Assembly: GCA_041656935.1 (NCBI GenBank)
Contig: JBBACQ010000006.1
Span: 1 to 62,720, forward strand
Reading direction: 5' to 3'
Length of the DNA stretch: 62,720 bases
Source: Patescibacteria group bacterium
GTDB lineage: Bacteria > Patescibacteriota > Patescibacteriia > Patescibacteriales > UBA12465
The notes beneath the pieces are model-generated. The model was not told the origin of the DNA. It saw nothing but the letters and a program-made list of their open reading frames with translations, and did not search any database. A program made the translations under genes and the position numbers. Shown piece after piece: positions 26,731 to 48,131 of this stretch (within the stretch, counting starts at the first letter, position 1; every line of letters starts with the position of its first letter).

Positions 26731-27987
26731 TTATTTCTTTTCTAAATTATAAATATCCTTTATCATAATAGGTTCGTTTTTAATGTTAAGAACCTCTAAT
26801 TTATTAATGGCTTCCCTAAATTTTAACCATAACCTGCTTTTATTTTTATCTTTTATAATAAAAGACCCAATTCTATTTTGTGATGAGAAATCTGAGCCAA
26901 TTTTCATTCCCTTCCCTTTATAAAAATAAATTTTTTCAATAATTTTATTTTTTTCTAGTTTTTTATAACCTAAAATCCTATTAAAAATTCCTGATCGAGC
27001 ATAAATCGTACCTATTAAAAAATAATTTTTATTATTCTTAATAGTTTTTTTATTTCTTTTATTAATTTTTAAATAGGAATCTACGGCTGTTTCTATAAAA
27101 TCGATCCCTGTTTTTAGTTTGATAACTTCGGAACTTATTCCCCCGCCCAATCTCGGGGAAAATTCAATAACATTAACTTTTTCATCTTTTATAATTAATT
27201 GGCAAAATAAAGGAGTGTTATTTAGGTTAAAAGAAATTACTATGTTATTAATTATTTCTAAAATTTCTTTTCTTGTTCTAGGTGAAACCTCAACTGGAGC
27301 CAAAGAACAATAACTCTGCATAACCGAGTCTCCTCTTTTATTAATTTTATTTTTTTTACTAATCAAGACTAAATTAACTTTAAAATTTTGGATTAAACAA
27401 TAAACCGAAAACTCATCGCCTTCTTTAAATTCCTCAATTATCGCTTTCTTAGTTCTACTCGCCTTAATTGCTAATTTTAAATATTTTTTAAGTTCAATTA
27501 GATTATTGGCCTTTCTAACACCCTTAGAGCCATTGTTATCCACTGGTTTCACTATAACGGGAAAATTTAAACCTGATTTTTTAAAGTTTAAAAGAGAAGT
27601 AAAAATAATGTATCTAGCAGTTGGAATATTATTTTCTATCATCTTTTTCTTCATTAAAGTTTTATCGGTAACTTCTTTTGCAATTTTATAACTATAGGGC
27701 GCTGGTAAACCTAGTTTTTCAGCTACATAACAAGCCGTTAAATTAGCTTGATCAACAGAAGTGCTTATCACTAAACTAGCTTTAACTTTTTTAGCGAATT
27801 CCAAGACCGCTTCTTTATCTAAAGTACTTTTTTCTATATGTTTATCAGCAAATTTTTTAGCTACTGGATTTTCTAAATAATCGACTAAAAAAACAAAGTA
27901 ACCTCTCTGCTGGAGAGATTTAATTAAGTTTATATGAGCATTGGTCCCACCTAAAACAATGGCAACTTTTTTTTTCTGACTTTCCAT
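26731..27987 (-). CDS. ATP-grasp ligase (carboxylate-amine ligase type), paralog B
   Basis: [39 protein letters not shown]. Confidence 0.88.
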
Positions 27988-37937: not shown

Positions 37938-39254
37938 TTAAACTGATTTAAGACGAAAAAAATCTCGTCTGACCTTTCTAAAAAACAAAGAAAAAATAGG
38001 AACCAAAGAATAAGAAAAGACCGTAACTACTATCGCTCCAGTTATTCCCCAAATTGGGATTAATAAAATATTTAACACTATATTTATCACAGCCCCCATT
38101 AGAGTTATATAAAAATAAATTTTAAAATAACCTTCAGCTACTAAATACTGCCCAACTAAAAATCTTAAAGAAACTCCTAGCAACGACCAAACTCCAATAC
38201 CTAATATAATTGAAGAGCTCAAATACTCTGTACCAAAAAGAAAATTAATTATATATTTAGAGAAAATAGATATAGGCAATATTACAATTAAGGATAAAAT
38301 TATTAAAAAAATCATCAATTTTTTTAATCTTGATCTATAAACCTTTAAATCAACCTTCCGAGCATTCAAAACCGCTGGAAAAAGCGATAAACATATAATA
38401 CTAGGTATAAAATAAAAAAGATCTAATATCCTAACTGGAGCCGAGTATAAACCAACCGCCACCTCATTTATCATCTCCTTAATCATAACCTGATCTATTT
38501 TCATATAAATAAAAACTGAAAAACTAGTAAACATTAAAGGCCAGGAATCCGAAAACATTTTTTTTGCTAAAGACAAATCAAATTTCCAAAATTTAATTTT
38601 AAAACCAGTTCGATGATAGAAAAAAAGAAGAAATATGCCTGACCAAACATAATCTAAAACATAAACTAACATTAACCAAATAATTCCAGCTCCGGAGAAT
38701 ATTATTACAATCTTTAAAACTGAAGAAATAGAAGAAGCAATAACTTGGGCTATAACTCCCTTCTTAGCTTCAACTCTAACTTGAAAAAAAACGTCTATGA
38801 TATTAAATGATTGCAAGACAAAAGTTAAGGAACATAAAAAAACTAAACCCCTAACCAGAGGAGAACTGTCTAATAAAAAAATAGAAAAAATTGATAAAAC
38901 AATAGCCAAAGATCCTCCAATAATTTTTAAACGGAAAGAGGTTCCTAATAACTGATCTCTTTTTTCGGGAAAATTGATTAACTCTCTTTTCAAAACTCGA
39001 TCTATGCCCAAGGTAGAAACGAAGAAAAAAATTCCGGTAAAAGCTAAGGCGTAGCTTAATATTCCATAGTTTTCTGGACCTAAATATCTAATAACCCAAA
39101 CTCCAATGAAAAAAGACAAAATTAAATTAAAGGCCTGACCAAAAAACATCCAACCGGTATTACTAAAATATCTTTTGAACCCTTCATGATTCAAAATCCA
39201 GCGCCATTTCTCTGGAGTGATTTTTTCTATTTTTGAAAAAAATTTCTCTAGCAT
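37938..39254 (-). CDS. wzx: Wzx-type oligosaccharide flippase
   Basis: RYFSNTGWMF, RYLGPENYG, YMKIDQVMI, VGLYSA, NI.LN..LIP.WG..GA; ~12 TMs. Confidence 0.9.
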   Translation of the reverse strand: MLEKFFSKIEKITPEKWRWILNHEGFKRYFSNTGWMFFGQAFNLILSFFIGVWVIRYLGPENYGILSYALAFTGIFFFVSTLGIDRVLKRELINFPEKRDQLLGTSFRLKIIGGSLAIVLSIFSIFLLDSSPLVRGLVFLCSLTFVLQSFNIIDVFFQVRVEAKKGVIAQVIASSISSVLKIVIIFSGAGIIWLMLVYVLDYVWSGIFLLFFYHRTGFKIKFWKFDLSLAKKMFSDSWPLMFTSFSVFIYMKIDQVMIKEMINEVAVGLYSAPVRILDLFYFIPSIICLSLFPAVLNARKVDLKVYRSRLKKLMIFLIILSLIVILPISIFSKYIINFLFGTEYLSSSIILGIGVWSLLGVSLRFLVGQYLVAEGYFKIYFYITLMGAVINIVLNILLIPIWGITGAIVVTVFSYSLVPIFSLFFRKVRRDFFRLKSV

Positions 39255-39264
39255 TTTAAAAAAA

Positions 39265-41112
39265 TTACTTTTTATCTTTAACTATCCCCGCAACCCGATC
39301 TGAGGGGCTAATTGGCTGACCATTATCATCAACTACTTTCATTCCCCCATCAACCAAAGCGGTCTTCCACTTTATAGCTTCAGCGAACTCTTCTCGACCT
39401 TCCCATAAATAAGGGACTGGCATAATTCCATCTTTAAAGATATCGTACATACCTTGAGGAGTATATAAATCTGGATAAGCCTGTTCAATTATTTGAACTA
39501 TCTTTCTAACCTCCGATACTAAATCAGCTGTTCTTCTCTCCACTTCTTTATCTTTAGACATATCGGTCACTTCACCCTTACTTCTAGCCTGTCGGTATTC
39601 CTCTATCGCCTGTAAAGTTATTTTAATACTTTCCTCAATAATTTCTGGAGTAGCTAAACTAATTCCTTCAGAATAACTAACTACATGAACTATATCAGGG
39701 CTTAACTCATTTAAGGGATCAATATCATCCATCATAGCTGAAACACTCGCCAATTGAATTTTAGCCTTGTAGGGGTCAGGCGAGAAATAGTCTAAACCAG
39801 CTCGTGGTTGAAGAAAAGCGGAAAAATTATCATCCTCTAATTCTTTAACTAATTTTAATAGAGCTCGGCTCTTGGCTAAATCTTGGACTCCCCAGGTATA
39901 TTTAGGTGTATTTAACATATTTTGAATAACAAAATATTTTACTCCTAATTTCTTAGCTGTTTTAGCAGCCAAAAGACCTGATAGAACATAGGAATAATCA
40001 TCAGCTCCTCTAAAGGCAAAATGATGTGGGATATTAGGTTCGAAGGGCTTATTGTGATCGGCAATTATTTTAAGAGTCTCGAAGTGTTCATCTAAATTGT
40101 ATCTGACAGTATGAGGTCCCCGACCATCAATTTGGCAAAACCACCAAAAAGAAAGAGCGTGCCAAGCCATATTAATTGTTTTTTCATATAACTCAGCTAA
40201 TTGGGGAACATTTTTAGTACCAGCATAGGTACGAACCAACATCGGTCGAGAAGCTTCATAAATGTTTATTAAATCCTGTTCGGAATTAATCGGAACTCCT
40301 CCACCATTGGGCTTGTCTTTCCAATCTAGACCAAAATCTGATTGAGATAATTGACTGGAACCAATAGAAAGAATATCTAACCAGCCATCCTGAGCTAATA
40401 TTTTTATCCACTCCTGAAAATCGCGTAAGGCCTTAGCATAATCCTTGTCATAAGGACCAACATGAACTCTAATCAGAGGCAGTTGCTTGTTTTTTCTGAC
40501 ATAGCTAATTCTTTTGGCGATACTATCACTTTTAGTGCCGAAATCTTCATAACCACTTCTATCGATTGGTTTTCTATTTAGATATTCGCCACTATCAATG
40601 ATTTTTTTAGCAAAAATTAATCTTTCCTCGTCATAGGCCGATACCTCCTTGATATTTTTGGGAATTAAATCTTTTGGTATCTCAATTTTTTCCAAGGATT
40701 CAACTGAATTTTCATCTCCCCAAAAAACCAATACTTGATCGCCATAATCTTTTTTAATTTTTTTACCAGCTTCTGGTAAACCAGCAAAGTACAAACTTTT
40801 AATCTGGTTTCCCAATAACTCGTGTTTCTTTAAAAAAGAAAATAATTGGTCAAACTTAGTCTTAGCATCACCGGGATCAAGACGATAACTAAAACCTAAT
40901 CTAGTTATCTTATTATCAAGAAGCCATTTTTTTAAAACAGAGAAATTTTCTTCAGTGGGTTGGTCAAGGAATTTAACTATTTTAGAACTAGCCATCAAGG
41001 CTTCAAAACCACAATCGGTTATTAGTTTACTGATGTTTAATATTCCTAAGACATGAGCATCTAAACTGGGTTTAACAAAGCCGAAAACGTCATTTTTAGT
41101 GATTTTCTCCAT
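39265..41112 (-). CDS. Cobalamin-dependent mutase-like protein: N-terminal B12-binding domain fused to a glutamate-mutase-E-like TIM barrel
   Basis: D-A-H-V-L-G (DxHxxG base-off/His-on motif), LGFSY, YFAG. Barrel motifs NGGGVPIN, LVRTYAGT, LGVKYF, VQDLA, SYSE...AT parallel recalled GlmE segments. Confidence 0.7.
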   Translation of the reverse strand: MEKITKNDVFGFVKPSLDAHVLGILNISKLITDCGFEALMASSKIVKFLDQPTEENFSVLKKWLLDNKITRLGFSYRLDPGDAKTKFDQLFSFLKKHELLGNQIKSLYFAGLPEAGKKIKKDYGDQVLVFWGDENSVESLEKIEIPKDLIPKNIKEVSAYDEERLIFAKKIIDSGEYLNRKPIDRSGYEDFGTKSDSIAKRISYVRKNKQLPLIRVHVGPYDKDYAKALRDFQEWIKILAQDGWLDILSIGSSQLSQSDFGLDWKDKPNGGGVPINSEQDLINIYEASRPMLVRTYAGTKNVPQLAELYEKTINMAWHALSFWWFCQIDGRGPHTVRYNLDEHFETLKIIADHNKPFEPNIPHHFAFRGADDYSYVLSGLLAAKTAKKLGVKYFVIQNMLNTPKYTWGVQDLAKSRALLKLVKELEDDNFSAFLQPRAGLDYFSPDPYKAKIQLASVSAMMDDIDPLNELSPDIVHVVSYSEGISLATPEIIEESIKITLQAIEEYRQARSKGEVTDMSKDKEVERRTADLVSEVRKIVQIIEQAYPDLYTPQGMYDIFKDGIMPVPYLWEGREEFAEAIKWKTALVDGGMKVVDDNGQPISPSDRVAGIVKDKK

Positions 41113-41130
41113 ATTTTTATCATATTAATC

Positions 41131-42204
41131 TTACAAAAGTTTAATTATATCTTGAACATCTAAACCAGCTAACCCCATGTTTTCCAAAGTACGACCCTTC
41201 TCTCGGAAGTTCAAACCTAATAGGTTCTCAGAAAAAACTAGTATCGCCTCCATTATGGGTAGTTTCAAACCAGCTATCCTGCCGAGCTCTAGTAGGGGCA
41301 AAATCCCGGCCGGAATGTCTTCTGTAAAAAATCTGGAATTGATAGAGGCTGGTGATTGTAATTTAAAATAGGCCGGATTATTATTAACTCTAGATAATAA
41401 ATCTTCTCCTAAAACTCCATCGTAGGCAAAAGAAACCCAATCTTTTACTGGCTGTAATTTTAGACCATAAGCCTCGCCAATTAATAATCTTTCTTCATCT
41501 AGTTTTTCAATAAAACTAGCTACCTGGGGGGTCATATTATTATAAAAACAAAATTTATCACCACGTTCAATAAGTGAAGCGTTAAACAAAGCTAAAGCGG
41601 GATGAAGAATAGCCCCCATATTTTCTAAGGAAGTGACTAAAACGTTATCGACTGGAACAAAACAACCATATAAATCTCTAATCTTATCTATAATCACAGT
41701 TAAATCCTTAGTTGGCAAAGAAGCACAAAAAACTCTATCTTTGATTCCAAAAATTTCTACTACTCCGGGAATTTGTTGACGACAAGCATAAACCAAAGTT
41801 TGAGCTTCTACTACATAGACCTTTTTATCCAAACCATAATCATTGAATTTCTTTCTGACCTCAAAGGCCCCACCAGTTCGACCAGAGTTTAATATTATTA
41901 TTTGTCCTTCTTCTAAAAATGGTGCTAATCTTTCAGCTATTTCTCCATTGGCATCGGCCGTTGTTGTAATCATTATAATTTCAGCTCCGGCTACTACCTT
42001 GGACAAATCATCAGAAACGAAACTAACCAAACCAAAGGTTTCTATTTCTCCTTTAAGATAAACCCCACCATTTTTGATAATATTAGAAATCTTACCAAGC
42101 GAACGATTGTATAAACTAATTTGATGACCCCGCATAGCGAGATAACCAGCCATGGCCTGACCGCCGTTTCCAGCTCCAATTATAGCTACTTTGTATTTTT
42201 TCAT
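41131..42204 (-). CDS. NAD/NADP-dependent opine (octopine/nopaline) dehydrogenase family
   Basis: IIGAGNGGQAMAG, LYNRS, LN.GRTGGA, EAQTL.YACR, SL.N.GA.LHP, LD.ERL, RFFTEDIP.G. Confidence 0.9.
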   Translation of the reverse strand: MKKYKVAIIGAGNGGQAMAGYLAMRGHQISLYNRSLGKISNIIKNGGVYLKGEIETFGLVSFVSDDLSKVVAGAEIIMITTTADANGEIAERLAPFLEEGQIIILNSGRTGGAFEVRKKFNDYGLDKKVYVVEAQTLVYACRQQIPGVVEIFGIKDRVFCASLPTKDLTVIIDKIRDLYGCFVPVDNVLVTSLENMGAILHPALALFNASLIERGDKFCFYNNMTPQVASFIEKLDEERLLIGEAYGLKLQPVKDWVSFAYDGVLGEDLLSRVNNNPAYFKLQSPASINSRFFTEDIPAGILPLLELGRIAGLKLPIMEAILVFSENLLGLNFREKGRTLENMGLAGLDVQDIIKLL

Positions 42205-42213
42205 ATTATAATT

Positions 42214-42999
42214 TTATTTCTTAGAAAACGATAATAACACATTTCCATTGCCTTTATTATTAGATTTTATTGGGAAAAAGTCAAAAAACAAAAACACCGA
42301 ACTTAATAATCTAAAAAAGGAAGATTTATTAGCATTTATTCTTTTTTCATAATCTGTTTCCCCGGGATAAAAATTATATAATCGTTCAGCTATATGTTTT
42401 TGAAAAAAGTTATGTATTCTAAATGACAATAATATTTTAGAATCAACTTTTAAACCAGCTCTTTTTCCAATTTCAATATATTCATCTATTGTTCTTTTAT
42501 AAAAAGTTGCTCCCTTATAGCTACAAGAAGCTACCTGTTCAAAAATAATAAAATTACCTCCATCTAACAATTGTTCCTTAATTTTAGAAAAAATAAATAT
42601 AACTTCTTCATCGGCAATATGAGAAAAAACAAGATAAGAATACACTAAATCAGTTTCCTTTAAAATAGCAAAATTATTTTTATCAAAAATAAAGAAATCA
42701 CATTCGGGATTTAACTTTCTCGCTCTTTCTATCATGGATGTAGATATATCAACCCCAAAAAAATTAATCTTTTCTAAAAAATTTAATTTGTTTTTATAAT
42801 ATTTTATATACCAGCCATCACCACAACCAAAGTCACAGATTTTTTTAAAACTCTCTTTAAAATAAGGTAAAGTGAGAGAAAGTAATGTCTTTCTTCTTTT
42901 CACATAAAAAGGAACGGGTGTTATAGTATAAAAAGATTCTCCCCTATAATCAAATGCTTTTAGTCCTCTTTTTTCCCAATATAAGATCTCTTTATCCAT
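42214..42999 (-). CDS. Class I SAM-dependent methyltransferase
   Basis: DFGCGDG motif I, GVDIS..MI..A, LVFSHI, L..GG.F.IFE. Likely start MDKEILYW at 42999. Confidence 0.85.
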   Translation of the reverse strand: MDKEILYWEKRGLKAFDYRGESFYTITPVPFYVKRRKTLLSLTLPYFKESFKKICDFGCGDGWYIKYYKNKLNFLEKINFFGVDISTSMIERARKLNPECDFFIFDKNNFAILKETDLVYSYLVFSHIADEEVIFIFSKIKEQLLDGGNFIIFEQVASCSYKGATFYKRTIDEYIEIGKRAGLKVDSKILLSFRIHNFFQKHIAERLYNFYPGETDYEKRINANKSSFFRLLSSVFLFFDFFPIKSNNKGNGNVLLSFSKK

Positions 43000-44215
43000 A
43001 TAATCTATGCAACATGATATCTTTTTTATCATTGTTTAAAATTTTTAAATTTTTATCAGCTTTTCTTATTTTTTCTTTTAACTCTTTTTTATCTTTTGCT
43101 ACGACCATAAACCCAGCTGGTCGGTCACTACTAGCGGTATTACTAGTGATAACGCTCCCCTTGGTTTTATAAAAAAATAGTTGGTCAATTGTTCTATCTT
43201 TTAATAATTCTTTATAGCCAACTATATCTCGAAAAACACCGGGTTTGGTATAGATATAATTCATAGCCACATAATTATTGCTGGGTTTAATTTTAAAATT
43301 TAGTTTTTCCTTTAACACAACTTTTATTAAATAATCAACGACGTCAACTCCGGCCATTTTTTTTATATAATAATATTTAGAACCACCACCAACTCTGGCG
43401 CTAAACTCAATTATCGAAACTTCGTTGTTTTTAGCTATTAACTGAACTAGAAGCGGAACATTTTTTAAATCAAAAGCCTGAGCTATCTTACGAACATTTT
43501 TTTTAATTTCAGAAATTAATAGATTATTAGCTTGATAAGAAACTGAATGAACAATAGTAAAATTATTTTTTTCTTTTTTATTTTTCTTATTTTCAGAAAT
43601 TGCTAAAATTATAGGCTCTTGCCCTTGCAAAATTATATCAACTGACAATTCTCGTCCCTCCTTAAATTCTTCGATAACAACTTTTTTACTTCTACTAATT
43701 TTAATTGCTTCATCAAAGAACCTCTTTAATTGACCGAAATCTTTAGCTTTTCTAACCCCCTTAGAGCTATTAAGATCAGCTGGTTTAACAACTACTGGAT
43801 AAGTTAATTCAGCCAGTTCTTTGTTTTTAATTAATTTCTCTTTTAGGAAGATACATTTAGAGGTCGAAACTTTATTTTCTATAAATTTTTTCTTCATCAA
43901 AACCTTGTCAGTAATAGCTAGTGCTTTTTCGTAAGACAAGTAATTAGGTAATTTCATTTTTTCACTTACATAACTAACCACTGGCAAGGCCTGATCAATA
44001 CAAACAGAAATTATTAAATTAATTTTATTTTTTTTACTAATTTCTAAAACTTTGTCTTTATTATAAATATCTTCTCTTAAAAAAACATCAGCATATTTTT
44101 TTGCTGGAGGATTTTCTAAATAATCAATTAAAATAGTTTTAAAACCTCTAGACTTTAATCTTTTTAATAAATAAATATGATCATTTGTTCCTCCTAAAAC
44201 TACAACTTTTTTCAT
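42992..44215 (-). CDS. ATP-grasp ligase, paralog A
   Basis: VVLGGT..H, DK.LMK, YPVVVKP.D.NSSKGV, VIEEF.EG.E.S, IIEFSARVGGG. Confidence 0.88.
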   Translation of the reverse strand: MKKVVVLGGTNDHIYLLKRLKSRGFKTILIDYLENPPAKKYADVFLREDIYNKDKVLEISKKNKINLIISVCIDQALPVVSYVSEKMKLPNYLSYEKALAITDKVLMKKKFIENKVSTSKCIFLKEKLIKNKELAELTYPVVVKPADLNSSKGVRKAKDFGQLKRFFDEAIKISRSKKVVIEEFKEGRELSVDIILQGQEPIILAISENKKNKKEKNNFTIVHSVSYQANNLLISEIKKNVRKIAQAFDLKNVPLLVQLIAKNNEVSIIEFSARVGGGSKYYYIKKMAGVDVVDYLIKVVLKEKLNFKIKPSNNYVAMNYIYTKPGVFRDIVGYKELLKDRTIDQLFFYKTKGSVITSNTASSDRPAGFMVVAKDKKELKEKIRKADKNLKILNNDKKDIMLHRLYG

Positions 44216-44234
44216 AAAATAAAATTAAACCAGA

Positions 44235-44351
44235 TTAACAACCACAATCACAATTGCTATCCTCTTCCGATTCGCAATCACACTCTGGATCACAACAGCA
44301 ATCAGGCTGGCAAGAACAATCTGATTTTTTTAAATCTTTTTCGTTTTCCAT
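44235..44351 (-). CDS. Unannotated 38-aa Cys/Asp/Glu-rich peptide (metallothionein-like)
   Basis: Hand translation from ATG 44351 to TAA 44235: MENEKDLKKSDCSCQPDCCCDPECDCESEEDSNCDCGC; 10 Cys, 13 D/E; below the ORF-track size cutoff. Confidence 0.75.
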   Translation of the reverse strand: MENEKDLKKSDCSCQPDCCCDPECDCESEEDSNCDCGC

Positions 44352-44420
44352 ATAATTTTGATCATCTAATAATAATTTATTTAAACAAATTAATCGAAAG
44401 ATGATTGTTATTAATTATTT

Positions 44421-45251
44421 TTATTTTAATTCTTTTTTCTTGCCTGGTAAAAATTTATTGCCAGAAATAACAGAACGCCCAGTTTGTTTCTCTAATTCTT
44501 TTCTAGCCTTTCCGGCAACACCACCACCCTTTTTAGCAACCTCCCTATTTTTGTTAAAAGTAACTGGTTTTTCTTTTTTGGAAATTTCTGTAGTTGAAGC
44601 TTCAGCTAACATATTTAAAACCAATTCCAAATTAGTCATATTATCACGTAAATTTTCTTTCTTTATACCTTTCACTTTTTTATATTCTTTTATTTTTATT
44701 CCTGCCCAAGCAAAAGTAATATCATCAGTTAAAATAGCAAACTTATCTGGAGTTTTTACGCCTCTTTTATCCCATTCATTAGTCAAATCTTTTCTAATTT
44801 CAATACTTTTCAACCTTAAATCAACCCAGTCCTTTGAATAGCCCTTCCTTAAGTAGGTAGCCATCGCTCTTTGAATGGCTTTCTCGGGATCTTCAACCTC
44901 CTCTACTCTTTCATAGCCGACTCTAGCTAACCAAAGCTTAAATGGCTCAGCTTTAGGAGACGGAATTGACTGAATAATACGAAAAATTGTTTCTGTATCG
45001 GCAACATCCGTTTCACGCATCTTATTATCCTCCGCCAACATTTTCAACTGTCCGATTTTTTCGGACACTTCGCTCCCTTCTTGTTTAATCTTTCTTTTTA
45101 AATCATCCCAATATTTACGAGGACGATTGTTTTGAGATAAAATTTTAACAATGTCAACTATTGAAAAATACCATTTTTCTCTTTTTTCATCCCAAACTCT
45201 TCGGATTTCTTGTCCGGAAAAAATTGCTAAATCTTTTTCTTTTTTGGTCAT
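44421..45251 (-). CDS. Bro-N domain protein (phage antirepressor-like)
   Basis: IRRVWD...EKWYFSIVD.V..L, PRKYW.DLK, QLKM.A.D.K.R.TD, IQSIPSPKAEPFKLWLA.VG.ER. Confidence 0.88.
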   Translation of the reverse strand: MTKKEKDLAIFSGQEIRRVWDEKREKWYFSIVDIVKILSQNNRPRKYWDDLKRKIKQEGSEVSEKIGQLKMLAEDNKMRETDVADTETIFRIIQSIPSPKAEPFKLWLARVGYERVEEVEDPEKAIQRAMATYLRKGYSKDWVDLRLKSIEIRKDLTNEWDKRGVKTPDKFAILTDDITFAWAGIKIKEYKKVKGIKKENLRDNMTNLELVLNMLAEASTTEISKKEKPVTFNKNREVAKKGGGVAGKARKELEKQTGRSVISGNKFLPGKKKELK

Positions 45252-45350: not shown

Positions 45351-48131
45351 TTACGTCCCACAACATTTCTTAAATTTTTTACCACTACCACACGGGCACA
45401 AATCATTTCGCCCAACCTTATTTCCGGCATCATCTTTAACCTTGTCTCGAGCCATATCAATAGTACCAGAATTATTTTCCGCTCCACCATCAGCCCCCTT
45501 CATTCTCCTAGCCATCTCTTTTAAAGGAGCCGAATATCTTTTAGCTCGCTCAATAATACTAGGGGCAATAAAATTAGAAACGTCCCCCGTTTTATAAATC
45601 GAATAAACCACCTGTCTTTGTATCAAGCCTAATAAATCTTGATACATGTGATAAGCTTCTTTTTTATATTCCACTAACGGATCTCTCTGCCCATAACCTC
45701 GTAAACCGATACCTCGTCTTAAATAATCAATCGTTTCTAAATGTTCTATCCATAAATTATCTATGGACCGGATTAAAATACCCTTTTCAATTTCAATAAA
45801 ATTAATATCTATACCAACAAAGCCTTCCCGCATGGCTTGATAATTTTTTTGAGCCAATGATTTCAAATAATTTAATAATTCATTTCTAAAATCATCTTTA
45901 TTACCACCAGAAAGAGTAATGTTTAAAATTTTATTTTTCTCTTCCTCATTTAGATTAAAAATGGTTTTCATCGTCTCATAAATCTCCTTTAAATTCCAAT
46001 CGGCAATATTTTCCACAGCGGTATGAAAATTTACTACTTGAAAAATTTCACTCTCAACATATTCAGAAACAATATCTGACAAAGATTTTCCCTCAACCGA
46101 AATTCCATCTTTTTGTTTTTTATAAATATCTAAAATCTCGCGTCGTTTTTTGTAAATCGCCTCCCGATGTTTATTAATCACATCATCATATTCAACTACA
46201 TGTTTACGCAAATCAAAATTATTTCCTTCGACTCTTCTCTGGGCTGATTCAATAGAATTAGAAACAACCTTATTTTGAATTGGCATATCTTCCGGCAACT
46301 TTAACATCCCCATAATGTTTTTCAAACGATCACCACCAAAAATTCGCATTAAATCGTCATCGGCCGAAATATAAAATTGGGAAGATCCGGGATCACCTTG
46401 ACGACCAGCTCGTCCTCTCAACTGATTATCAATACGACGAGATTCATGTCTTTCTGTTCCAATCACGTGCAAACCACCTAATTCTTTCACCTTTTCTTGT
46501 TCTTCTTTAATGGCTGGACTTCCGCCTAAAATAATATCAACTCCACGACCAGCCATATTAGTAGCAACTGTAATTGAACCTAAACGACCAGCTTGAGCAA
46601 TAATTTCCGCTTCTCTAAAATGGTTTTTGGCATTTAAAATATTAGGATGAAGACCTTCTCGCTCCATCATATCTCCTAATAATTCATTATCTTCAATAGA
46701 AACCGTACCAATCAAAATTGGCTGTCCCTTAGCATTCCTTTCCTTAACTTCTCGAATAACGGCAATAAATTTACCCTCCGTAGTTTTATAAATCAAATCA
46801 TTAAAATCTTTTCTAACATTGGGTTTGTTAGTAGGAATAACAACTGTTTCCAATTTATATATTTTATAAAATTCCTCGGCTTCGGTCACCGCTGTTCCAG
46901 TCATACCAGCTAATTTAGGATACATTCTAAAATAGTTTTGAAAAGTAACCGTGGCTAAAGTCTGAGACTCGCGTTGAACCATTACTCCTTCTTTAGCCTC
47001 AATCGCTTGATGCAATCCCTCACTGTATCTTCGACCGGGCATTAAACGTCCAGTAAATTCATCGACGATAATAATTTCACCTTCCTTAACAACATAATCC
47101 TTATCTTTTTTAAATAAGACATTAGCCTTAAGAGCTTGTTCAATATTGTGAACATCTTTAACGCCCCCAGCTACATAAATATTTTCTACCCCTAACCATT
47201 TTTCCATTTTAGATATTCCGGCCTCTGATAAAGTAGCGGCGCGCATTTTTTCATCAATATTATAATCTTCATTTTCTTTTAATTGACGAACCAATTGTGA
47301 AAACCGAGCATAACGATCGCTCGACTCTTCGGCGGGAGCGCTGATAATAAGCGGAGTTCGAGCTTCGTCAATTAATATTGAATCCACCTCATCTACAATG
47401 GAATAATAAAAATCACGTTGAGCCATTTGTGTTAAATCAGACACCATATTATCGCGTAGATAATCAAAACCAAATTCATTATTAGTACCATAAGTAATAT
47501 CACAATCGTAAGCTTCTTTGCGACTAACCTGTCTAAAAGGTTTCAAACGAGGGTCATATTCCTCTTCATTGCTAACACTGGGATCATAAATAAAGGCTGT
47601 ATTATGAACAATAACGCCAGTAGAGAGGCCTAAGGCGTGATAAACTGGAGCCATCCAACCAGCACCAACCCGAGACAAATAATCATTAACCGTAACCAAA
47701 TGAACTCCTTTCTTTAAAAGAGCATTTAAATATAATGGCAAAGTTGCTACTAAAGTTTTACCCTCACCAGTTTTCATTTCCGCAATTTGACCTCGATGTA
47801 AAACAATTCCTCCAATAAGTTGAACATCATAATGTCGTTGACCTAAAACTCGATGAGAGGCCTCACGAATATTAGCAAAAGCTTCTGGTAAAATTTCATT
47901 TAACTTATCTTGCTGTTCGGAAAAACTATATTCCTTCTCCTCCCCTGCTAAAGACCCTAACCTTTTTTGAAATTCTAAAGTCATCAAGCGTAATTCTTCG
48001 TCACTCTTTTTTTTATAATCCTCCTCTAAAGAATTTATTTTATCAATTATTGGTTTAATTGATTTTATAATCTTTAAATTGGGGTCACCTAATATTTTAT
48101 TCCAAAAACTCATATTTTTATTCTTAGACAT
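45351..48131 (-). CDS. secA: Preprotein translocase ATPase SecA
   Basis: EMKTGEGKT, TNNEFGFDYLRDNM, DEVDSILIDEARTPLIIS, ATNMAGRG.DI, RRIDNQLRGRAGRQGDPG, SEC-C GRND.CPCGSGKK.KKCC. Confidence 0.99.
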   Translation of the reverse strand: MSKNKNMSFWNKILGDPNLKIIKSIKPIIDKINSLEEDYKKKSDEELRLMTLEFQKRLGSLAGEEKEYSFSEQQDKLNEILPEAFANIREASHRVLGQRHYDVQLIGGIVLHRGQIAEMKTGEGKTLVATLPLYLNALLKKGVHLVTVNDYLSRVGAGWMAPVYHALGLSTGVIVHNTAFIYDPSVSNEEEYDPRLKPFRQVSRKEAYDCDITYGTNNEFGFDYLRDNMVSDLTQMAQRDFYYSIVDEVDSILIDEARTPLIISAPAEESSDRYARFSQLVRQLKENEDYNIDEKMRAATLSEAGISKMEKWLGVENIYVAGGVKDVHNIEQALKANVLFKKDKDYVVKEGEIIIVDEFTGRLMPGRRYSEGLHQAIEAKEGVMVQRESQTLATVTFQNYFRMYPKLAGMTGTAVTEAEEFYKIYKLETVVIPTNKPNVRKDFNDLIYKTTEGKFIAVIREVKERNAKGQPILIGTVSIEDNELLGDMMEREGLHPNILNAKNHFREAEIIAQAGRLGSITVATNMAGRGVDIILGGSPAIKEEQEKVKELGGLHVIGTERHESRRIDNQLRGRAGRQGDPGSSQFYISADDDLMRIFGGDRLKNIMGMLKLPEDMPIQNKVVSNSIESAQRRVEGNNFDLRKHVVEYDDVINKHREAIYKKRREILDIYKKQKDGISVEGKSLSDIVSEYVESEIFQVVNFHTAVENIADWNLKEIYETMKTIFNLNEEEKNKILNITLSGGNKDDFRNELLNYLKSLAQKNYQAMREGFVGIDINFIEIEKGILIRSIDNLWIEHLETIDYLRRGIGLRGYGQRDPLVEYKKEAYHMYQDLLGLIQRQVVYSIYKTGDVSNFIAPSIIERAKRYSAPLKEMARRMKGADGGAENNSGTIDMARDKVKDDAGNKVGRNDLCPCGSGKKFKKCCGT

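What the first reader, a model, noticed from the sequence alone, without database searches (positions are those of the whole stretch)
44235..44351. Hidden 38-aa, 10-Cys acidic peptide heading the glycan operon
Seen: MENEKDLKKSDCSCQPDCCCDPECDCESEEDSNCDCGC, missing from the ORF track, with CxC, CCC, CxC and CxCxC clusters, 13 acidic residues and no aromatics or His. Its stop is 19 nt before the ATP-grasp A start on the same strand. Established: such Cys spacing typifies metallothioneins, and a leader plus Cys/Asp/Glu core next to an ATP-grasp also resembles RiPP precursor logic. Inference: most likely a metallothionein-like metal or Fe-S/Co buffer for the metalloenzyme-rich operon; less likely a substrate of the adjacent ligase and methyltransferase.
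Basis: partly seen in the sequence, partly recalled or inferred. Interest (0 to 1): 0.7.

Follow-up and report, generated by a model that had tools for sequence, protein, structure and literature searches.

The report
Metallothionein-like mini-gene, not glycan-linked
A real 38-codon gene in a tiny-genome (CPR-like) bacterium encodes a peptide that is one-quarter cysteine. It belongs to an unnamed, lineage-restricted family of probable metal-binding peptides, and its position in front of the sugar-chain operon is a local accident, not a functional link.

Summary
The ORF exists at 44235-44351, but on the minus strand. It encodes MENEKDLKKSDCSCQPDCCCDPECDCESEEDSNCDCGC and stops 19 nt before the ATP-grasp start. 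It has the highest Cys content of the 4119 ORFs in this 893-kb genome.

It has relatives, all within one family of genomes:
- Two other free-standing 47-aa copies. Both have their own hairpin plus T-run terminator.
- In at least eight sister species, the same CxC-repeat acidic module forms the N-terminal domain of a small LiaF-TM membrane protein next to a PspC gene.
- In two other genera, free 27-49-aa copies close a three-gene operon: a Cu-type CsoR repressor, a MerT/HMA-like membrane protein, then the peptide.

Synonymous sites between orthologues are saturated, yet 9 of 10 Cys columns are kept.

The ATP-grasp/methyltransferase block is absent from all 20 sister genomes, and the ligase is of the small-molecule type. 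The link to the glycan operon therefore reflects a rearrangement private to this genome, which also lost PspC and LiaF-TM.

Best reading (about 0.5): a metallothionein-like chelator of thiophilic metals, probably Cu(I). A RiPP precursor is very unlikely. Metal binding is untested. No Pfam, NCBIfam or PDB family matches.

The parts
44235..44351 (-). 38-codon gene plus TAA stop, encoding a 10-Cys, 13-acidic peptide (P0001). It is a free-standing copy of the CxC-repeat module.
   Evidence: Translation. Highest Cys fraction in the genome. Orthologues P0002 and P0003 and fused homologues. 9 of 10 Cys columns kept although synonymous sites are saturated.
44423..44451 (-). Promoter-like site (TTTACC/TTACCA, 16-17 nt spacer, TAAAAT). 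It overlaps the 3' end of the Bro-N gene, about 70 nt upstream of the peptide's ATG. Candidate promoter for the peptide and, by read-through, for the ATP-grasp operon.
   Evidence: Consensus scan only. It is the only minus-strand promoter-like site between Bro-N and the ATP-grasp gene. Function not shown.
44352..44420 (-). 69-nt, 13% G+C spacer between the Bro-N stop and the peptide start. No Shine-Dalgarno motif.
   Evidence: The missing SD says nothing, because only 2-4% of this genome's genes have one.
44216..44234 (-). 19-nt junction between the peptide stop and the ATP-grasp start. It has no terminator, unlike the orthologous loci.
   Evidence: No terminator-like site. Fold of 44190-44260 gives -5.5 kcal/mol, z = +0.74. 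G011 and P0003 have a hairpin plus T-run here.
42992..44215 (-). Context only: ATP-grasp ligase, first gene of a block (ligase, methyltransferase, opine dehydrogenase, 615-aa unknown; 39265-44215). The sister genomes lack the ligase (the only gene of the block tested), and in G011 an epimerase gene occupies this position.
   Evidence: Pfam and NCBIfam matches to LAL/PylC/CPS-like small-molecule ligases. No orthologue in 20 same-genus genomes. G011 has an epimerase there instead, before the orthologous Wzx.
44421..45251 (-). Context only: Bro-N domain gene. It occupies the place where sister genomes carry peptidase S51, AAA_28, PspC and LiaF-TM genes.
   Evidence: PF02498, E = 1.4e-11. Synteny in G011. 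PspC is found in 20 of 21 genus genomes but not here.

Best explanation
The ORF is a genuine small gene. It encodes a soluble, cytosolic, very acidic 4.2-kDa peptide that most likely binds thiophilic metal ions through thiolate clusters built from its CxC/CCC motifs. Cu(I) is the first candidate, and Zn(II) or Cd(II) are possible. In other words, it would be a metallothionein-like chelator.

It is one form of a module with CxC-G/x-P/D-D/E repeats that is restricted to one family of small-genome bacteria. The module occurs in three settings:
(a) as a free peptide with its own promoter and terminator;
(b) as the cytoplasmic N-terminal domain of a two-helix LiaF-TM membrane protein encoded after a PspC gene;
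(c) as the last gene of a CsoR / MerT-HMA-like / peptide operon.

In this genome a rearrangement removed the PspC and LiaF-TM genes, the peptide's terminator and the next promoter. It placed a foreign ATP-grasp/methyltransferase/opine-dehydrogenase block 19 nt behind the peptide gene. The peptide is therefore probably co-transcribed with the glycan operon without serving it.

Shown: the gene's existence, its homologues, their contexts and conservation of the Cys scaffold. Inferred: metal binding, which metal, the cytoplasmic location and the transcription pattern.
For: Reality of the gene:
- Highest Cys fraction in the genome; chance about 3e-4.
- A positional orthologue in G011 lies between SecA and the Wzx operon. 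SecA is 87% and Wzx 55% identical between the two genomes.
- That orthologue is identical on 7 contigs (the four fetched come from four sample records) and is called as a gene.
- A third orthologue, P0003, was found among 1.84 billion representative proteins.

Selection:
- dS is saturated, yet 9 of 10 Cys columns are kept, 3 of them with TGT/TGC switches. 20 of the 28 other codons changed the residue.
- NG86 dN/dS is 0.24 where it can be computed.

Module family:
- Fused to PF18917/PF22570 LiaF-TM proteins after PspC in G001, G002, G005, G008, G013, G017 and G019.
- The window peptide's end, NCDCGC, matches HNCDCGCEEDF in G017.

Metal link:
- In G027, G070 and G095 (two genera) free 27-49-aa copies follow a PF02583 repressor (E = 7e-13) and a MerT/HMA-like membrane protein.
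- The closest solved structures to that repressor are Cu(I)-sensing CsoRs (4m1p, 2hh7), and the Cys/His/Cys ligand positions align.
- MTs are defined as small Cys-rich proteins with metal-thiolate clusters. MymT is a precedent for a 4.9-kDa, previously unannotated bacterial Cu-MT (PMC7558416).
- The HMA domain is found in only 2 of 21 genomes of the genus and not in G000, so a chelator would fill a gap.

No coupling to the operon.
Against: - No metal-binding, expression or proteomic data exist.
- No Pfam, NCBIfam or PDB family matches. The AlphaFold model has low confidence (pLDDT 56), which is expected for an apo-MT but proves nothing.
- Homology between the genus-g1 module and the CsoR-operon peptides rests on short, low-complexity matches (per-genome E = 0.3 with the single sequence; 7e-5 to 4e-10 with a profile that includes them). 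It could be convergence.
- G000 itself has no CsoR, MerT/HMA or other metal gene near the peptide.
- A net charge near -10, and more negative once thiolates form, is unusual for an MT.
- In G000 the module's usual partners (PspC, LiaF-TM) are gone, so the gene might be on its way out.
Confidence: 0.5

Rival explanations
1. The module has a thiol-based function other than metal chelation. In the fused proteins the Cys-rich domain would act as a redox, Fe-S or stress-sensing input, or as a partner surface, for the PspC/LiaF-TM envelope-stress pair. Alternatively the peptide could be a cysteine/sulfur reserve. The free peptide in G000 would then be a soluble version of that function.
For: In the window's own genus the module is always tied to the PspC/LiaF-TM locus and never to a metal gene. 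Only 2 of 21 genomes in the genus have any HMA protein.
Against: CxC spacing with intervening Gly/Pro/Asp is typical of thiolate clusters rather than of Fe-S or disulfide-relay motifs (my own knowledge). The only regulator ever found next to the module is a Cu-type CsoR. G000 keeps the peptide although PspC and LiaF-TM are absent, which argues against an obligatory partnership.
Confidence: 0.2
2. It is a functionless leftover: a piece of the Cys-module locus that survived the deletion or insertion that removed PspC/LiaF-TM and brought in Bro-N and the ATP-grasp block. It would still be open only because too little time has passed.
For: G000 is the only one of 21 genus genomes without PspC and one of two (with G014) with no LiaF-TM match. 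The peptide's own terminator and the downstream promoter seen in G011 and P0003 are missing. Only one contig carries this exact peptide. It is the shortest g1 version.
Against: The frame is intact with an ATG and 10 Cys codons, each one substitution away from TGA. Divergence from the G011 and P0003 orthologues is saturated at synonymous sites, yet 9 of 10 Cys columns are kept. Free-standing copies are a normal state of the family (G011, P0003, G027, G070, G095).
Confidence: 0.15
3. It is a cysteine-sensing upstream ORF. Ribosome pausing on 10 Cys codons would tune translation or transcription of the ATP-grasp operon 19 nt downstream, like the polycysteine attenuators of mycobacteria.
For: The ORF sits in the 5' leader of the operon with no terminator or separate promoter in between. 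The genome initiates without SD motifs, so re-initiation coupling is conceivable.
Against: The same sequence is a protein domain in at least eight sister species and a terminator-bounded monocistronic gene in two others. There is no alternative hairpin structure and no Rfam leader. The downstream genes are not cysteine-metabolism genes. Any such effect would be a by-product of the rearrangement.
Confidence: 0.05
4. It is a RiPP precursor: a leader (MENEKDLKKS) plus a Cys/Asp/Glu core that is modified by the adjacent ATP-grasp ligase and methyltransferase.
For: The peptide is adjacent to the ligase and on the same strand. In G009 a different Cys/Asp-rich 63-aa ORF overlaps a radical-SAM/SPASM gene, so Cys/Asp peptides can be RiPP-like in this genus.
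Against: The ligase matches LAL/PylC/D-Ala-D-Ala/CPS-type small-molecule ligases, and no graspetide ligase model is among its best hits. Its 43%-identical paralogue at 26731-27987 has no peptide upstream. No sister genome has the ligase. Orthologous peptides stand alone or are fused to a membrane protein. There is no radical-SAM/SPASM maturase in the window or a close one elsewhere in the genome.
Confidence: 0.03

Closest known systems
Mycobacterial Cu(I) metallothionein MymT (RicR/CsoR-family regulon)
   Same: A very small (about 4-5 kDa), Cys-rich bacterial peptide that annotation overlooked. It is thought to sequester Cu(I) (PMC7558416). In sister genera the present family is encoded behind a CsoR-family repressor with Cu(I) ligands. 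That MymT is controlled by a CsoR paralogue is my own recollection, not checked here.
   Different: No sequence relationship was shown. The present peptide is far more acidic, lacks His, and has regular CxC-x3 repeats. In the window genome there is no CsoR at all. Fused membrane-anchored forms exist here.
Fungal Cu-thioneins (Neurospora crassa MT, yeast Cup1)
   Same: Dominated by CxC motifs separated by 3-5 residues, with no aromatics (recalled from memory). The size class is similar.
   Different: Eukaryotic families with no detectable homology. PDB metallothioneins reach only E = 0.4-9 with the profile, which is a compositional resemblance only.
Bacterial metallothionein BmtA/SmtA (Pfam PF02069)
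   Same: A small bacterial metal-thiolate protein under the control of a metal sensor.
   Different: No Pfam hit. SmtA has a zinc-finger-like fold with His ligands and aromatic residues, which this peptide lacks.
LiaI/LiaF-type small membrane proteins next to PspC (PF18917, PF22570, PF04024)
   Same: In at least eight sister species the module is the N-terminal domain of such a protein, encoded directly after a PspC-domain gene.
   Different: The window peptide has no transmembrane part, and its genome has neither gene. A Cys-rich N-domain on LiaF-TM proteins matched no Pfam or NCBIfam model. The held paper library was not searched for it; a search for papers on metallothioneins in Patescibacteria found none.
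Cys/His/Asp-rich metal-binding tails on unrelated proteins
   Same: The CxCGDDCxC motif recurs at the C-termini of a 420-aa dehydrogenase-like protein and of an archaeal prefoldin-like protein. This suggests a portable metal-binding low-complexity module.
   Different: Those are tails of larger enzymes in other phyla. They are likely convergent, not orthologues.

Membership tests
Metallothionein (functional superfamily) | Low molecular mass (under 10 kDa) and high Cys content (about 15-35%) | tested here: met
   4214.5 Da, 10 of 38 residues Cys = 26%.
Metallothionein (functional superfamily) | Cys arranged in CxC / CC / CxxC motifs; few or no aromatic residues | tested here: met
   CSC, CCC, CDC and CDCGC present; no F, W, Y or H.
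Metallothionein (functional superfamily) | Binds several metal ions in metal-thiolate clusters | not testable with these tools
   Needs recombinant peptide with ESI-MS or spectroscopy. The AlphaFold apo model is uninformative (pLDDT 56).
Metallothionein (functional superfamily) | Genetic link to metal sensing or transport | tested here: inconclusive
   Met for relatives in genera g6 and g8, which have the CsoR / MerT-HMA-like / peptide operon. Not met in the window genome or its genus.
Bacterial metallothionein BmtA/SmtA (PF02069) | Match to the Pfam model, and a zinc-finger-like fold with His and aromatic residues | tested here: not met
   No Pfam family at E <= 10 for the four peptides scanned. 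No His or aromatics.
Graspetide-type RiPP (precursor plus ATP-grasp macrocyclase) | Adjacent ATP-grasp of the peptide-macrocyclase type | tested here: not met
   The best Pfam/NCBIfam matches are ATP-grasp_4, Dala_Dala_lig_C, PylC, LAL_C2 and CPS-like. No graspetide ligase model is among the 25 best NCBIfam hits.
Graspetide-type RiPP (precursor plus ATP-grasp macrocyclase) | Precursor-ligase pairing conserved in relatives | tested here: not met
   The ligase is absent from 20 same-genus genomes. The paralogous ligase has no peptide upstream. Orthologous peptides are bounded by terminators or fused to LiaF-TM.
Ranthipeptide / SCIFF-type RiPP | Radical-SAM/SPASM maturase next to the Cys-rich precursor | tested here: not met
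   None in the window. In G000 the best match to the G009 maturase is a 24%-identical core hit elsewhere in the genome.
Polycysteine leader-peptide attenuator | uORF followed by alternative terminator/antiterminator structures or overlapping the RBS of cysteine-related genes | tested here: not met
   No stable structure, no Rfam hit, and the downstream genes are a ligase and a methyltransferase. Orthologues are independent genes.
LiaI-LiaF-like TM proteins (PF18917 / PF22570) | Two-helix LiaF-type transmembrane hairpin | tested here: not met
   The window peptide ends at the last Cys of the N-domain. It aligns only to the N-terminal domain of the fused proteins. No LiaF-TM gene is present in G000.

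The most novel reading that the evidence does not exclude
The CxC-repeat module would be the first metallothionein family of the ultra-small (CPR/Patescibacteria-like) bacteria. In its fused form it would be a membrane-tethered metallothionein on a LiaF-type hairpin that couples cytoplasmic Cu/Zn or thiol status to the PspC envelope-stress pair. In genomes that lack HMA/P1B-ATPase systems it would be the main defence against thiophilic metals. The 38-aa peptide of this window would be its minimal soluble form.
Probability: 0.25. Interest if true: 0.6.

Novelty: new variant of a known kind. Interest (0 to 1): 0.42.

Why it matters
Bacterial metallothioneins are few, polyphyletic and routinely missed by annotation. 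This work adds an unnamed, lineage-restricted family from bacteria with minimal genomes. It has three architectures: a free peptide, a LiaF-TM fusion next to PspC, and a CsoR / MerT-like operon member. Most genomes of the genus lack the usual HMA/P-type ATPase copper and zinc machinery.

If metal binding is confirmed, it would show how such reduced cells handle thiophilic metals. It would also give a first example of a membrane-anchored MT-like domain on an envelope-stress scaffold.

For the glycan operon the result is negative but useful. The peptide should not be counted as part of the glycan pathway or as a RiPP substrate. The operon appears to have captured the peptide's promoter.

Tried and rejected
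- Plus-strand reading of the coordinates gives stops.
With A2 it returned only P0001 and P0002.
With the G002 fused protein it found G002, two other fused relatives and three unrelated proteins with Cys/Asp tails. The record titles were uninformative MAG names.
- Pfam and NCBIfam scans of the peptides found nothing.
- The PDB profile search found nothing significant.
- AlphaFold gave a low-confidence coil, so no fold search was run.
- Tandem Repeats Finder and Rfam found nothing on the locus.
- The paralogous ATP-grasp at 26731-27987 was checked for an upstream peptide; there is none.
- G000 was searched for PspC, LiaF-TM, CsoR, MerT/HMA and a radical-SAM/SPASM maturase. There was no credible hit.
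- The weak profile hit in G309 is spurious. The one in G058 was not examined.
- A sample of 400 genomes from 320 genera across the phylum gave no further match.
- Comparison of population variation across 5 G011-type contigs was uninformative because all are identical.
- dN/dS is imprecise because dS is saturated and the sequences are short.
- Literature searches found no paper linking metallothioneins with CPR/Patescibacteria.

Full report
**Observation**

The coordinates are right but the strand is minus. The + strand of 44235-44351 is full of stops. The reverse complement reads MENEKDLKKSDCSCQPDCCCDPECDCESEEDSNCDCGC* (listed as ORF 44235..44351 -, ATG, 38 aa). The peptide has 10 Cys, 7 Asp, 6 Glu and no aromatic residue or His. 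It weighs 4214.5 Da and has a net charge of about -10.6. Its TAA stop is followed by 19 nt and then the ATG (44215) of a 407-aa ATP-grasp gene on the same strand.

The window lies in an 893-kb, 22-contig, 31% G+C assembly that is 93% complete. That size and composition fit an ultra-small CPR/Patescibacteria-type bacterium.

The ORF is not a chance product:
- Of 4119 six-frame ORFs of at least 30 aa in the genome it has by far the highest Cys fraction, 26.3% against 14.6% for the next.
- The binomial probability of at least 10 Cys in 37 codons at this base composition is 7.6e-8, or about 3e-4 after correction for all ORFs.
- Its G+C is 37.6%, against 13% in the 69-nt spacer upstream.

**Neighbourhood**

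On the minus strand the gene order is:
- SecA (45351-48131)
- a Bro-N domain gene (44421-45251)
- the peptide
- ATP-grasp (42992-44215)
- SAM methyltransferase (42214-43032)
- opine-type dehydrogenase (41131-42204)
- a 615-aa protein with no Pfam or NCBIfam match (39265-41112)
- a Wzx-type flippase (37938-39254)
- an FrhB/pyruvyl-transferase fusion and glycosyltransferases

The ATP-grasp matches ATP-grasp_4, D-Ala-D-Ala ligase C, PylC-like N and LAL_C2 in Pfam. Its best NCBIfam matches (49 families hit, the 25 best shown) include CPS-like, PylC, Ddl and dapdiamide-synthase models. It is therefore a small-molecule or amino-acid ligase type. It has a 43%-identical paralogue at 26731-27987, and that paralogue is preceded directly by another gene with no small ORF.

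**Relatives of the peptide**

A single-sequence search of 60 related genomes gave only weak hits, but they proved informative.

*G011 (same genus).* It encodes MEEEKKVVGNPCKECADGCDCLPECDCTPECKCGEDEADDCGCGCVC (47 aa). The surrounding gene order is SecA, peptidase S51, AAA_28, PspC, LiaF-TM protein, peptide, NAD-epimerase, Wzx, glycosyltransferases. SecA is 87% and Wzx 55% identical to the window's proteins, so this is a positional orthologue. DNA similarity is visible across the ORF. The G011 peptide is carried on 7 contigs; the four fetched come from four sample records in three sources (ENA, JGI, Logan). It was called as a gene there.

*P0003.* A full HMMER scan of 1.84 billion representative proteins found only one more member, MEKRDNLLNDSPEKDTPDCDCIPDCHCGPECMCGEDSAEDCGCGCAF.

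*Fused forms.* Profile searches of the family and order and a search with the fused protein showed that in genus g1 the same module is usually the N-terminal domain of a 108-219-aa membrane protein. An example is G002: MENKNVEEKNNLEHCGCDCGPECDCGDDCHCDEGVCDCGDHDCDCDCGCEEDF...FSCC...LGVFYLGKNMGWWNF... The others read are G001, G005, G008, G013, G017 and G019. The C-terminal part of these proteins is a LiaI-LiaF-like TM hairpin (PF18917/PF22570). Each of these genes lies downstream of a PspC-domain gene (PF04024), directly in most and with one gene between in G001 and G005.

The window peptide aligns along the whole N-domain. Its end, NCDCGC, corresponds to HNCDCGCEEDF in G017. Basic residues flank both helices on the N- and C-terminal sides. 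The positive-inside rule therefore puts the Cys domain in the cytoplasm (inference).

*Distribution.*
- About half of the genus has the module: 10 of 21 genomes in the profile search.
- G018 has PspC, a Cys-free LiaF-TM protein and then the glycan operon, with no peptide.
- Beyond the family, two weak hits in other families of the order were spurious (G309) or not examined (G058).
- A sample of 400 genomes from 320 genera across the phylum gave no match.

**The metal link**

In genera g8 (G027, G070) and g6 (G095) free peptides of 49, 39 and 27 aa are the last gene of a conserved three-gene unit. Examples are MSEEQKCTCGCGCGSDCQCGPDCKCGPDCQCGPDCECQK and MNEEKKCTCGCDCGSECNCGADCNCKK.

The first gene is a 90-aa member of the metal-sensitive repressor family PF02583 (E = 7e-13). 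Its closest solved relatives are the Cu(I) sensors CsoR of Geobacillus (4m1p) and M. tuberculosis (2hh7). YCIDIM and NHLNTC align on the Cys/His/Cys ligand positions (the assignment of ligands is my own knowledge).

The second gene is a 198-aa membrane protein with N-terminal CC. It gives sub-threshold MerT and HMA matches.

This is the classic context for a metal-induced chelator. The precedent is MymT, a 4.9-kDa, previously unannotated Cu(I) metallothionein of mycobacteria (review PMC7558416).

**Selection**

Between the free-standing orthologues, synonymous sites are saturated (NG86 dS undefined). Even so, 9 of the 10 Cys columns between window and G011 are conserved, 3 of them with TGT/TGC switches, and Pro and Glu of the PEC motif are kept through synonymous changes. 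In contrast, 20 of the 28 other codons changed the residue. Where it could be computed, dN/dS for the core is 0.24. Every Cys codon is one step from TGA, so an intact frame at this divergence argues for purifying selection on the thiol scaffold. This is the pattern expected for a metal-thiolate peptide. The estimates are rough because the sequences are short.

**Why the glycan-operon link is an accident**

1. The G011 peptide has a promoter-like site 34 nt upstream. Directly after its stop it has a 12-bp hairpin with a T7 tail, followed by a separate promoter for the epimerase. P0003 has the same terminator and promoter arrangement, but a different downstream gene.
2. In the window there is no terminator or stable hairpin between the peptide and the ATP-grasp gene. 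The only minus-strand promoter-like site lies upstream of the peptide, at 44451-44423.
3. The ATP-grasp gene has no orthologue in any of the 20 same-genus genomes.
4. G000 is the only one of 21 genus genomes without a PspC gene. It also lacks the LiaF-TM protein, as does G014. A Bro-N gene sits in their place.

The simplest history is a rearrangement private to this lineage. It deleted the S51/AAA_28/PspC/LiaF-TM genes on one side. On the other side it replaced the terminator, promoter and epimerase with the ATP-grasp/methyltransferase/dehydrogenase/615-aa block. The operon would then be read from the peptide's promoter (inference).

The lack of an SD motif before the peptide says nothing, because only 2-4% of this genome's genes have one.

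**Mechanism proposed**

The peptide is a soluble cytosolic chelator. Its ten thiolates would form one or two metal-thiolate clusters. By analogy with 9-11-Cys MT domains this could mean roughly 3-4 divalent ions or 4-8 Cu(I); this is my inference and is untested. The many carboxylates would keep it soluble or add hard-ligand sites.

The HMA domain, which is present in 13 of 14 control genomes, occurs in only 2 of 21 genomes of this genus and not in G000. Such a peptide could therefore be a main buffer against thiophilic metals in these genomes.

**Weaknesses**
- There is no family or fold match.
- Homology between the g1 module and the CsoR-operon peptides rests on short low-complexity matches. 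Similar CxCGDDCxC tails occur on unrelated proteins, so convergence is possible.
- In the window's own genus the module is tied to PspC/LiaF-TM, not to metal genes.

**Rivals**
- Another thiol-based role linked to the PspC/LiaF-TM pair, or a sulfur reserve: 0.2.
- A decaying leftover: 0.15.
- A Cys-sensing uORF: 0.05.
- A RiPP precursor: 0.03.

The RiPP reading fails on four counts: the type of ligase, the absence of conserved pairing, the peptide-less paralogue, and the lack of a radical-SAM/SPASM maturase. A different Cys/Asp-rich 63-aa ORF in G009 does overlap such a maturase and is noted separately.

**Comparison with the known, and novelty**

By composition and motif the peptide meets the sequence criteria of the metallothionein superfamily. 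It is not a member of BmtA/SmtA (no PF02069 hit, no His or aromatics). It has no demonstrated relationship to MymT or to the fungal Cu-thioneins that it most resembles in CxC spacing (recalled from memory).

I found no paper linking metallothioneins with CPR/Patescibacteria. Earlier notes of this scan list many unannotated MT-like micro-ORFs next to metal regulators in other bacteria. The kind is therefore recurrent, and this one is best ranked as a new variant: a lineage-restricted family with an unusual LiaF-TM-fused architecture.

Interest is moderate (0.42). It is a solid hidden gene and a useful correction to how the operon should be read, but its function is unproven.

Noticed in passing
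L014 7470-8512 (G027); L018 887-1620 (G070); L086 613-1584 (G095): A conserved three-gene unit occurs in two sister genera. It consists of a Cu(I)-type CsoR repressor (90 aa), a 198-199-aa membrane protein with N-terminal CC and weak MerT plus HMA matches, and a 27-49-aa CxC-repeat peptide. It looks like an undescribed copper/thiophilic-metal operon of small-genome bacteria.
   Followed up: partly
L089 525-1683 (G009 contig C50): A 63-aa ORF ends in ...NSNNCDCDCTFDCDCAIDCDCVGNDCDCECRY and overlaps the start of a 331-aa radical-SAM protein that has a C-terminal SPASM-like Cys cluster. This is a ranthipeptide-like RiPP pair with a Cys/Asp core. G009 has 5% contamination, so its origin is uncertain.
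   Followed up: no
window 44421-45251 and whole genome G000: G000 is the only one of 21 genomes of its genus without a PspC-domain gene, and it also lacks the LiaF-TM protein. A Bro-N domain gene sits where sister genomes have S51 peptidase, AAA_28, PspC and LiaF-TM. The assembly is 93% complete, so absence is likely but not proven.
   Followed up: partly
genus-wide: The HMA domain (PF00403) was found in only 2 of 21 genomes of the genus, against 13 of 14 control genomes. Most of these bacteria therefore seem to lack CopZ/CopA-type metal handling.
   Followed up: no
window 39265-41112 (-): A 615-aa protein inside the block private to this genome has no Pfam or NCBIfam match at all. An earlier first-reader note calls it glutamate-mutase-like. 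This was not examined here.
   Followed up: no
L098 1891-3153; L099 920-1423: Unrelated proteins carry C-terminal CxCGDDCxC/His-rich tails resembling the module. One is a 420-aa dehydrogenase-like protein of an uncultured bacterium and the other a prefoldin-like protein of a Woesearchaeota MAG. These are probably convergent metal-binding tails.
   Followed up: no
whole genome G000: Only about 2-4% of genes of at least 150 aa have a GGAG-type Shine-Dalgarno motif within 20 nt of the start. Translation initiation in this organism is essentially SD-independent.
   Followed up: partly
L053 2208-3032 (G005); L083 378-1202 (G001): In two sister species a 274-aa gene is inserted between PspC and the Cys-LiaF-TM gene. 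In several others a Fic-domain gene follows the pair. The locus is a hotspot for accessory-gene insertion.
   Followed up: no
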